A stretch of DNA of 63,547 bases, filler included, from Collodictyon triciliatum (lineage: Eukaryota), in the NCBI GenBank assembly GCA_043381765.1. It is 56 parts of 56 records of this genome, joined end to end, with 100 filler letters (N's around TTAATTAATTAA, not from the genome) between each part and the next. Parts side by side here need not be neighbours in the genome. Positions count along the whole stretch, not along the records: positions 39,838 to 40,872 come from JBHJMP010012600.1; 55 more parts are not named here. One strand, written 5' to 3'. The notes beneath the pieces are model-generated. The model was not told the DNA's origin. It saw nothing but the letters and a program-made list of their open reading frames with translations, and did not search any database. This document shows, one piece after another, positions 39,839 through 40,145 of this stretch. The position numbers and the translations under genes are program-made. How positions within the stretch are numbered: position 1 is the first letter of the stretch; every line of letters starts with the position of its first letter.

Positions 39839-40145
39839 TTTGGCAAGGATGTTGTACTGGCGTATGGAGACTGGAGCAGAAAATGTCAGATGAAACATTT
39901 CATGCCAGCAATTGGAAGAGGATTACGAAAAATACTATCCAAACGTTTTGGGACAGTCAATATGAACGAATTAAGAACCAAGATGTATTATAACTGCGAA
40001 AAAGAACTGGGATATATGAAACCGAAAGGAAATAGGAAAAAGTGTATAGATGCCTCATATGTAAAGAATGCAATCGCTCAGAAAGCAAGCAAAGTATATT
40101 CTTGACAAGGGACTTTAACAGCGCTAAAAGCATAATCAATAAAGT
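39839..40145 (+). pseudogene. Fanzor2/TnpB-type RNA-guided nuclease C-terminus (RuvC-II, zinc finger, RuvC-III), frameshifted
   Basis: FGKDVVLAYGDWS..MKHFMPAIGRGLRKILSKRFGTVNMNELRTK.YYNC, then after a frameshift near 40035 KVYRCLICKEC...FLTRDFNSAKSI. This gives the (D/N)ExxT(S)K, CxxC and RDxN(S/A)A motifs in TnpB/Fanzor order. Confidence 0.82.

What the first reader, a model, noticed from the sequence alone, without database searches (positions are those of the whole stretch)
39839..40145. Remnant of a eukaryotic RNA-guided nuclease (Fanzor2/TnpB type) split by a frameshift
Seen: two frames join into YGDWS...MKHFMP..G.GLR..L.K.F....NE.RTK..xxC...VYRCLxCxxC.....TRDFNSA. Established: Fanzor/TnpB proteins end with a RuvC-II Glu, a split CxxC...CxxC zinc finger and an RDxNA RuvC-III Asp. 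The GDWS/MK..P..G.GLR block is, from my recollection, typical of the IS607-derived Fanzor2 clade of giant viruses and protists. Inference: this copy is dead, since it has a frameshift near 40035, a Tyr in place of the first zinc-finger Cys, a missing Ser in TSK and an atypical C-terminal tail. It still implies a Fanzor family, possibly with intact copies, in this genome.
Basis: partly seen in the sequence, partly recalled or inferred. Interest (0 to 1): 0.82.

Follow-up and report, generated by a model that had tools for sequence, protein, structure and literature searches.

The report
Decayed Fanzor1 gene tail, contig edge

Summary
Window 39839-40042 (one frame) and 40045-40140 (the frame one base back) together encode about 100 residues. 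Read through with X at the break, they match a profile of 39 full-length relatives at E 1.8e-39. Those relatives are Fanzor1: their profile hits the solved Parasitella, Spizellomyces and Guillardia Fanzor1 chains at E 1e-101 to 1.5e-86. TnpB scores only 0.3, and no row is named Fanzor2. The Fanzor2/IS607 assignment is therefore not supported.

The window is a chain of 56 unrelated contigs of about 1 kb, and the gene starts at base 2 of its contig. The missing N-terminal five sixths is therefore an assembly edge, not a shown deletion.

The copy does look dead. It has a one-base frameshift that a non-identical lake-metagenome contig also carries. The Ser of T-S-K is lost, both Cys of the first zinc-finger pair are Tyr, a near-invariant Asn is Ser, and the last 30-odd profile positions are unrecognisable. 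The catalytic Glu and Asp remain.

Four 70-83% identical fragments on other short NCBI contigs point to a multicopy decaying family. The closest full-length relatives lie beside Tc1/mariner-type transposases in giant-virus contigs. This is a new member of a known kind, of low interest.

The parts
39839..40042 (+). First reading frame of the Fanzor1 tail. It holds the YGDWS strand (Fanzor1-specific Gly at 39866-39868), the alternative RuvC-II Glu (39968-39970), T-K with the Ser missing, and the first zinc-finger pair reading Y-Y-N-C (39986-39997).
   Evidence: phmmer: 177 hits at E<=1e-3. tblastn with P0005 gives 2e-18. Six-frame profile search gives 84.9 bits on profile positions 490-568.
40043..40044 (+). 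The break. Two bases are left of a codon, so the window is one base short here compared with in-frame relatives and the reading moves back by one base.
   Evidence: DNA alignment with five viral Fanzor1 genes. P0162 and P0060 read K-K-V-Y straight through this point. A lake-metagenome contig with 4 mismatches and 0 gaps spans it (record 1).
40045..40143 (+). Second reading frame. It holds the second zinc-finger pair C-K-E-C (40060-40071) and RuvC-III R-D-F-N-S-A (Asp at 40111-40113), followed by Ser where relatives have Asn.
   Evidence: tblastn with P0005 gives 1e-8, and P0060 is identical at 28 of 30 residues. Six-frame profile search gives 27.0 bits on profile positions 555-597.
40144..40327 (+). 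Stretch after the recognisable coding part. It has no match to the family's C-terminal 30-odd profile positions, yet related copies in freshwater metagenomes still share it. Their cover stops at about 40311-40327, which may be the end of the repeated element.
   Evidence: No profile match in any frame. Depth table and loose ends at 40292 and 40311. RNA fold z-score -0.60.
40156..40243 (+). 88-base segment that one related metagenome contig lacks, an insertion/deletion difference between copies.
   Evidence: Joint 40155>40244 in one contig of run X2 (table 5). Reading across it with X does not extend the profile match: 128.6 against 128.4 bits.

Best explanation
Contig 39838-40872 opens inside the 3' end of a Fanzor1 gene that is a non-functional, decaying copy.

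**How intact members work (from the literature).** They are omega-RNA-guided double-strand DNA endonucleases with one RuvC active site. The site is built from an upstream Asp, a relocated Glu in the (D/N)-E-x-x-T-S-K segment, and the Asp of the R-D-x-N motif, with a C4 zinc ribbon between the last two. They ride in DNA transposons.

**What is shown for this copy.**
- It keeps the Glu and the Asp.
- It carries a one-base frameshift between the two zinc-finger halves.
- It has lost the Ser of T-S-K, both Cys of the first pair and a near-invariant Asn.
- It has no recognisable C-terminal tail.

**What is inferred.**
- It cannot make a working nuclease.
- It is one of several diverged copies of a repeat family in a microsatellite-rich eukaryotic (probably freshwater protist) genome.
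- The family is related to the Tc1/mariner-borne Fanzor1 genes of giant viruses.
- Whether the upstream five sixths of this copy exists is unknown, because the contig ends there.
For: **Homology to Fanzor1**
- phmmer gave 177 hits at E<=1e-3. The full-length ones are 585-722 aa, with the match about 130 residues from their C-terminus.
- The X-read-through matches the 39-sequence profile at E 1.8e-39.
- That profile hits PpFz1 at 9.9e-102, SpuFz1 at 1.3e-93 and GtFz1 at 1.5e-86.

**Catalytic residues**
- The spacing 935 to 1000 in the 8gkh chain equals E541 to D606 (PMC11423790 passage). These align with the window's Glu at 39968-70 and Asp at 40111-13.
- Bao & Jurka's Fanzor1-specific conserved Gly and Glu (PMC3627910 passage) are both present: G in 145 of 148 and E in 141 of 144 hits.

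**Decay**
- Lesions at columns conserved in 115/141, 136/144 and 110/112 hits.
- No tail in any of the six frames.
- Of the two X1 contigs that span the break, one differs from the window at 4 bases and has no gap, so it carries the same frameshift. The other differs by a net +4 bases across 40006-40043, which would put it in frame.

**A multicopy family**
- P0008, P0060, P0162 and P0163 are 70-83% identical by blastp. They come from NCBI contigs of 518-582 bp.
- P0162 and P0060 are in frame at the window's break and keep C-C-x-C. P0162 keeps T-S-K, while P0060 reads P-S-K.
- P0060 has a different shift upstream.
- 25 records from the two metagenome runs lay on the stretch, mostly at 85-99% identity.

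**Element type of the relatives**
- A DDE_3+HTH transposase lies divergently next to the Fanzor1 gene in L001 and L003, between giant-virus genes. L005 has none. This is 2 of the 3 loci scanned; L002 and L004 were not scanned.
Against: - Pfam and NCBIfam find nothing in either frame taken alone.
- The zinc-ribbon family PF07282 reaches its cut-off in only 1 of the 17 relatives scanned (P0019, 28.8 bits).
- The fragment alone hits a solved Fanzor1 only at E 0.043.
- The frameshift could still be an error common to short-read data. The metagenome contig that shares it may come from the same organism, so it is weak as independent support.
- The catalytic Glu and Asp are intact.
- 9 of 141 hits also have Tyr at the first Cys column, and two X1 contigs show no difference from the window at that codon. 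That one substitution may therefore be a tolerated lineage trait.
- Whether the host is a eukaryote or the contig is viral is not settled by 1 kb.
Confidence: 0.85

Rival explanations
1. The gene is intact and functional in the organism. The frameshift is an assembly or sequencing error, and the missing N-terminus is only the contig edge.
For: - The N-terminal loss is indeed a contig end.
- The break lies beside a run of five A.
- The catalytic Glu and Asp are kept.
- Close fragments P0162 and P0060 are in frame at this point.
Against: - A non-identical metagenome contig (4 mismatches) has no gap across the break.
- Independent of the frameshift, the copy lacks the Ser of T-S-K (136/144), both Cys of the first zinc pair, and a 110/112 Asn.
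- No frame encodes profile positions 598-630.
Confidence: 0.07
2. It is a Fanzor2 / IS607-type element, once paired with a serine-recombinase TnpA.
For: Fanzor2 is enriched in giant viruses (passages of PMC10530073), and the closest full-length relatives here are viral.
Against: - All significant solved-structure hits are Fanzor1, and no row is named Fanzor2.
- The relatives are 585-722 aa.
- The neighbouring transposase is the DDE_3 type in 2 of the 3 viral loci scanned.
Confidence: 0.02
3. The contig is not host DNA. It is a piece of a giant virus, free or integrated, that was co-assembled with the eukaryote.
For: - The closest full-length relatives are in giant-virus contigs of 57-254 kb.
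- Bao & Jurka note virus-integrated Fanzor elements in eukaryotic assemblies (PMC3627910 passages).
- Pieces of the stretch occur in lake and freshwater metagenomes.
Against: - Identity to the viral genes is only 45-55%.
- The 70-83% identical copies are all broken in different ways on separate short contigs, a pattern typical of genomic repeats.
- The flank 40328-40872 matched nothing viral or otherwise.
- Other contigs of the window carry microsatellites, a reverse-transcriptase piece and WD40/ephrin-receptor-like repeats.
Confidence: 0.12
4. It is an unrelated zinc-finger (C2H2-like) coding fragment.
For: Frame B alone hits PRDM9 zinc-finger arrays at a whole-sequence E of 0.0019.
Against: - Each matched stretch scores only 2.7-7.5 bits and none passes on its own.
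- The same frame matches the Fanzor1 profile at 27 bits (E 4.5e-10 for a search of the contig's six frames only), through the R-D-x-N motif.
Confidence: 0.01

Closest known systems
Fanzor1 nucleases with solved structures: Spizellomyces punctatus SpuFz1 (8gkh, 9ceu-9cez), Parasitella parasitica PpFz1 (9cf0-9cf3), Guillardia theta GtFz1 (9cer-9cet)
   Same: - The same C-terminal layout: the G-(D/N)-W-S strand, the relocated Glu in (D/N)-E-x-x-T-S, the zinc ribbon, and R-D-x-N.
- The relatives' profile hits these chains at E 1e-101 to 1.5e-86.
- The window's Glu and Asp align with SpuFz1 E541 and D606.
   Different: - Only about 100 of roughly 630 residues are present.
- The copy is frameshifted.
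- The Ser of T-S-K, both Cys of the first zinc-finger pair and an Asn are lost, and there is no tail.
- Direct similarity of the fragment to PpFz1 is weak (E 0.043).
Tc1/mariner-borne Fanzor1 elements of giant viruses and protists (PGv-1, PUl-1 of Bao & Jurka 2013, PMC3627910; Fanzor1c of Jiang et al. 2023, PMC10530073)
   Same: - The closest full-length relatives (L001-L005) lie in giant-virus contigs.
- In L001 and L003 a DDE_3+HTH transposase is adjacent, matching the association those papers describe (passages).
   Different: - No transposase, terminal repeat or target duplication can be read in the window's contig.
- None of the other 55 contigs holds a transposase piece.
- I did not compare with PGv-1 or PUl-1 themselves, because no sequence of them was at hand.
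Fanzor2 / IS607-type TnpB (e.g. mimivirus ApmFz2)
   Same: The general TnpB-family motif D...[TS][TS]xx-C4-RD and the relocated RuvC-II Glu are shared by all Fanzors (passages of PMC3627910 and PMC10530073).
   Different: - There is no detectable specific similarity: no Fanzor2 row at E<=10.
- ISDra2 TnpB scores only E 0.3.
- I did not check separately that a Fanzor2 chain is present in the PDB copy.

Membership tests
TnpB/Fanzor superfamily (motif of Bao & Jurka 2013: D-X(125,275)-[TS]-[TS]-X-X-[C4 zinc finger]-X(5,50)-RD) | Upstream RuvC-I Asp | not testable with these tools
   It would lie upstream of base 39838, beyond the contig's end. The genome is not held.
TnpB/Fanzor superfamily | [TS]-[TS] pair before the zinc finger | tested here: not met
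   The window reads R-T-K. The Ser column (S in 136 of 144 hits) is a gap.
TnpB/Fanzor superfamily | C4 zinc finger (two Cys pairs) | tested here: not met
   The first pair reads Y-Y-N-C, so the first Cys (C in 115 of 141) is Tyr. The second pair C-K-E-C is kept, but it lies in the other frame.
TnpB/Fanzor superfamily | R-D of RuvC-III within 5-50 residues after the finger | tested here: met
   R (112/115) and D (106/114) are kept at 40108-40113, 13 residues after the last Cys.
Fanzor1 clade | Fanzor1-specific conserved Gly and Glu (G500, E536 of Bao & Jurka), the Glu being the relocated RuvC-II residue | tested here: met
   Gly of Y-G-D-W-S (G in 145/148) and Glu of N-E (E in 141/144) are both present, 34 residues apart.
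Fanzor1 clade | Sequence similarity to Fanzor1 greater than to Fanzor2 or TnpB | tested here: met
   Fanzor1 chains at 1e-101 to 1.5e-86, TnpB at 0.3, and no Fanzor2 row. No phylogeny was built.
Fanzor1 clade | Open reading frame able to give a full-length protein | tested here: not met
   There is a frameshift at 40042/40043. Profile positions 598-630 are absent. Positions 1-489 are off the contig.
Fanzor1 clade | Associated omega-RNA next to the gene's 3' end | tested here: inconclusive
   There is no Rfam match on the contig. Fold z-scores are -0.22 and -0.60. No DNA similarity to the viral loci exists past the coding part. No model of a Fanzor omega-RNA was available.
Tc1/mariner-type Fanzor1 transposon | DDE transposase, terminal inverted repeats, TA duplication | not testable with these tools
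   Only the 3' part of one copy is on the contig. No transposase piece was found in the window. The association is seen only in relatives L001 and L003.

The most novel reading that the evidence does not exclude
The unnamed, microsatellite-rich eukaryote behind this window carries its own expanded Fanzor1 lineage. At least five diverged copies are known: this one plus four fragments at 70-83% identity. The lineage is only about 50-55% identical to the giant-virus mariner-Fanzor1 genes. Among its many copies, some could be intact and active. That would give a host-resident sister group to the viral enzymes and a trace of virus-host transfer of an RNA-guided nuclease.
Probability: 0.2. Interest if true: 0.35.

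Novelty: new member of a known kind. Interest (0 to 1): 0.15.

Why it matters
It matters little by itself. Fanzor1 genes, their decay products, and their presence in protists and giant viruses have been in print since 2013 and were characterised in 2023-24 (PMC3627910, PMC10432273, PMC10530073, PMC11423790; passages read).

The report's use is corrective:
- The fragment is Fanzor1, not Fanzor2.
- Its apparent truncation is an assembly edge.
- The window is a chain of unrelated contigs, so 'upstream' and 'downstream' genes across the linkers mean nothing.

If the source genome were searched and held intact copies of this roughly 55%-divergent lineage, they would add modestly to the catalogue of eukaryotic RNA-guided nucleases.

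Tried and rejected
- **Profile libraries on each frame alone.** Pfam and NCBIfam gave no family. I did not scan an X-joined peptide against Pfam.
- **Phage records and IMG/VR with the fragment itself.** There were only chance-level hits or none. IMG/VR answered only when queried with the full-length relative P0005.
- **Own genome.** It is not held, so paralogues and an upstream transposase could not be sought.
- **Word-index protein search.** 'Longer' found nothing. 'Near' found three NCBI fragments.
- **Metagenome contigs.** The fragment alone gave none. An alignment gave 23 loci, the best over the full length at 56% identity and two partial matches (47 residues) at 66-70%, so no full-length match closer than the giant-virus genes.
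- **Sequencing runs.** No run of the source organism and no RNA holder is listed. Parts of the stretch beyond about 40327 had no cover.
- **A hidden tail.** I tested whether the missing C-terminal tail lies behind the 88-base segment 40156-40243 that one metagenome contig lacks. Reading across with X gives an R-P a similar distance after R-D-x-N as in relatives, but the profile score does not rise (128.6 against 128.4 bits). Not supported.
- **An intron after the RuvC-III motif.** A GT...AG span at 40144-40191 would join to an unrelated short frame, and no frame downstream matches the profile. Rejected.
- **An omega-RNA or other structured RNA downstream.** No Rfam match and folds no better than shuffles.
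- **PRDM9-like zinc finger for frame B.** Rejected as a repeat artefact.
- **ORF 40374-40667 on the minus strand.** No homologue.
- **Earlier notes of this scan.** There were none for this genome or sequence.
- **Supplementary tables of the Fanzor papers.** These list hosts and could show whether this organism is already covered, but they were not open to me.

Full report
**What the window is.** The 63,547 bases are not one locus. They are 56 contigs of 1029-1042 bases joined by N...TTAATTAATTAA...N linkers. They vary in G+C from 24 to 51%. They are full of microsatellites and carry a reverse-transcriptase piece, a WD40/ephrin-receptor-like repeat protein and one tRNA. This looks like the tail of a fragmented eukaryotic draft assembly. 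No whole genome is held for it. The finding lies on contig 39838-40872 and begins at that contig's second base.

**The observation.**
- Both frames hit the same database proteins: tblastn pairs with P0003 4e-25, P0002 1e-24 and P0009 8e-25.
- phmmer of the 69-residue frame-A piece (39839-40045) against 1.84 billion representatives gave 177 proteins at E<=1e-3 and 17 at E<=1e-10. In the full-length hits (585-722 aa) the match sits about 130 residues from the C-terminus.
- A profile of the 39 hits of 560-760 aa matches the read-through (X at the break) at 128.7 bits, E 1.8e-39, on profile positions 490-597 of 630.
- In a DNA alignment with five viral homologues the window is one base short at 40042/40043.

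**What family.** Neither frame alone hits Pfam or NCBIfam.
- The fragment's only family-level solved-structure hit is Parasitella Fanzor1, at E 0.043.
- Its relative P0005 (634 aa, 56% identical to the read-through) hits SpuFz1 at 9e-37, PpFz1 at 7e-34 and GtFz1 at 7e-16, and nothing else at E<=0.01.
- The 39-sequence profile hits the same three at 9.9e-102, 1.3e-93 and 1.5e-86. The next rows are LaTranC 2e-4, a Cas12m 0.044 and ISDra2 TnpB 0.3. None of the 21 rows is named Fanzor2. I did not separately confirm that a Fanzor2 chain is in that copy of the PDB.
- PF07282, the TnpB/Cas12f zinc ribbon, is the recurrent Pfam hit of the relatives. It passes its cut-off in only 1 of the 17 relatives scanned.

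So this is Fanzor1.

**Catalytic residues.** A passage of Xu et al. (PMC11423790) names D383, E541 and D606 as the SpuFz1 catalytic residues.
- In the 8gkh fusion chain, the Glu of D-E-Y and the Asp of N-R-D fall at 935 and 1000. They are 65 apart, like 541 and 606.
- They align with P0005 E530 and D581, and those align with the window's Glu (39968-39970) and Asp (40111-40113).
- Jiang et al. (PMC10530073 passages) describe this Glu as an alternative residue that replaces the canonical RuvC-II Glu, which in Fanzors is Gly or Pro.
- Bao & Jurka (PMC3627910 passage) list a Gly and a Glu as extra Fanzor1-conserved residues. Both are present in the window (G in 145/148 hits, E in 141/144).

**Is it dead?** These counts come from the alignment of the 150 listed hits.
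- The Ser of T-S-K (136/144) is deleted.
- The first zinc-finger Cys (115/141) is Tyr, and so is the adjacent residue (Cys in 40/140).
- The last Asn of R-D-x-N-x-A-x-N (110/112) is Ser.
- The other three Cys, and the R, D and N, are kept.
- Profile positions 598-630 match no frame of the rest of the contig.

The frameshift is probably real. In lake-metagenome run X1, two contigs span the break. One covers 39956-40106 with 4 mismatches and no gap. The other, more diverged, differs by a net +4 bases across 40006-40043, which would keep it in frame. The first contig could come from the same species, so this support is moderate.

One caution applies. The two X1 contigs that cover the first-Cys codon show no difference from the window there. 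They show G for A at 39990, which gives Cys at the neighbouring codon. P0001 also reads Y-C-N-C. The first Tyr may therefore be a lineage trait, and only the second Tyr specific to this copy.

The missing N-terminal five sixths is simply off the contig.

**A family of copies.** Four proteins from NCBI contigs of 518-582 bp (P0008, P0060, P0162, P0163) are 70-83% identical to the read-through.
- P0162 reads N-E-F-R-T-S-K-M-C-C-N-C and K-K-V-Y in one frame.
- P0060 is in frame at the window's break, but its first part is in another frame of the same sequence, and its tail repeats the RuvC-III stretch in a shifted frame.

Different copies thus carry different lesions, as expected of decaying repeats. 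I cannot show that these contigs come from the window's own assembly.

In freshwater run X2, 22 records lay on the stretch, mostly at 85-99% identity, piled on 39838-39957. Cover ends near 40311-40327, with loose ends at 40292 and 40311. One contig lacks 40156-40243.

None of the window's other 55 contigs holds a further Fanzor or transposase piece.

**Relatives and element type.** P0005-like genes (88%, 80%, 80%, 80% and 49% identical to P0005) lie in IMG/VR giant-virus contigs of 57-254 kb. The window's read-through is 45-55% identical to them.
- In L001 and L003 a DDE_3 + HTH transposase lies divergently just upstream. Viral genes flank the pair: ribonucleotide reductase small chain, DUF5755, mRNA capping enzyme and a helicase.
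- In L005 there is no transposase. A DEAD-box helicase and a MutS-domain protein flank the gene.
- L002 and L004 were not scanned.

This matches the Mariner/Tc1-Fanzor1 association in print (passages). Saito et al. state that Fanzor1 occurs in protists and giant viruses (PMC10432273 passage). No full-length metagenome match was closer than 56%.

**Downstream.** Past 40143 there is no similarity to the viral loci, no Rfam family and no unusual fold (z -0.22 and -0.60). The G+C-rich stretch 40438-40737 (47-62% G+C) and its 97-codon minus-strand ORF have no homologue.

**Verdict.** This is a real but ordinary fossil: the decayed 3' end of a Fanzor1 gene at a contig edge, one of several diverged copies. 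It is related at about 50-55% to the mariner-borne Fanzor1 genes of giant viruses. The Fanzor2/IS607 label is wrong.

Earlier notes of this scan on other genomes describe similar decayed or intact Fanzor1 elements in giant viruses. They served as leads only.

Noticed in passing
window 1-63547: The window is a chain of 56 unrelated contigs of about 1035 bp, sorted by length and joined by N...TTAATTAATTAA...N linkers. Any finding that spans or reasons across a linker has no genomic meaning.
   Followed up: yes
window 40438-40737: A G+C-rich island (47-62% G+C against about 35% around it) lies downstream of the Fanzor remnant. It has a 97-codon minus-strand ORF (40374-40667) with no homologue, no Rfam match, and no cover in the metagenome runs that hold the Fanzor part.
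   Followed up: partly
window 40156-40243: One related freshwater-metagenome contig lacks this 88-base segment, an insertion/deletion difference between copies. It is not bounded by GT..AG.
   Followed up: partly
P0060 and P0002 (database relatives): Two related fragments carry a duplicated RuvC-III stretch. P0002 reads the T-R-D-L-N motif twice in tandem. P0060 repeats the same stretch in a shifted frame. This suggests short tandem duplications are common in decaying copies of this family.
   Followed up: no
L001 4638-7905; L003 4648-7905: In two giant-virus contigs a DDE_3+HTH transposase and a Fanzor1 gene sit head to head, between ribonucleotide reductase, capping-enzyme and helicase genes. 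I found no convincing terminal inverted repeats with a simple repeat scan.
   Followed up: partly
window 2286-3269, 34163-35194, 51177-52208, 55715-56746, 60244-61275: Several contigs are open from end to end, or nearly so, in one frame (163-344 codons) and have no Pfam family. They are lineage-specific or fast-evolving proteins of the source organism.
   Followed up: partly
window 11946-12225 (-): From recall, an ORF piece here looks like dihydrofolate reductase (a G-R-K-T-W-x-S-I-P type motif). It was not scanned against any library.
   Followed up: no
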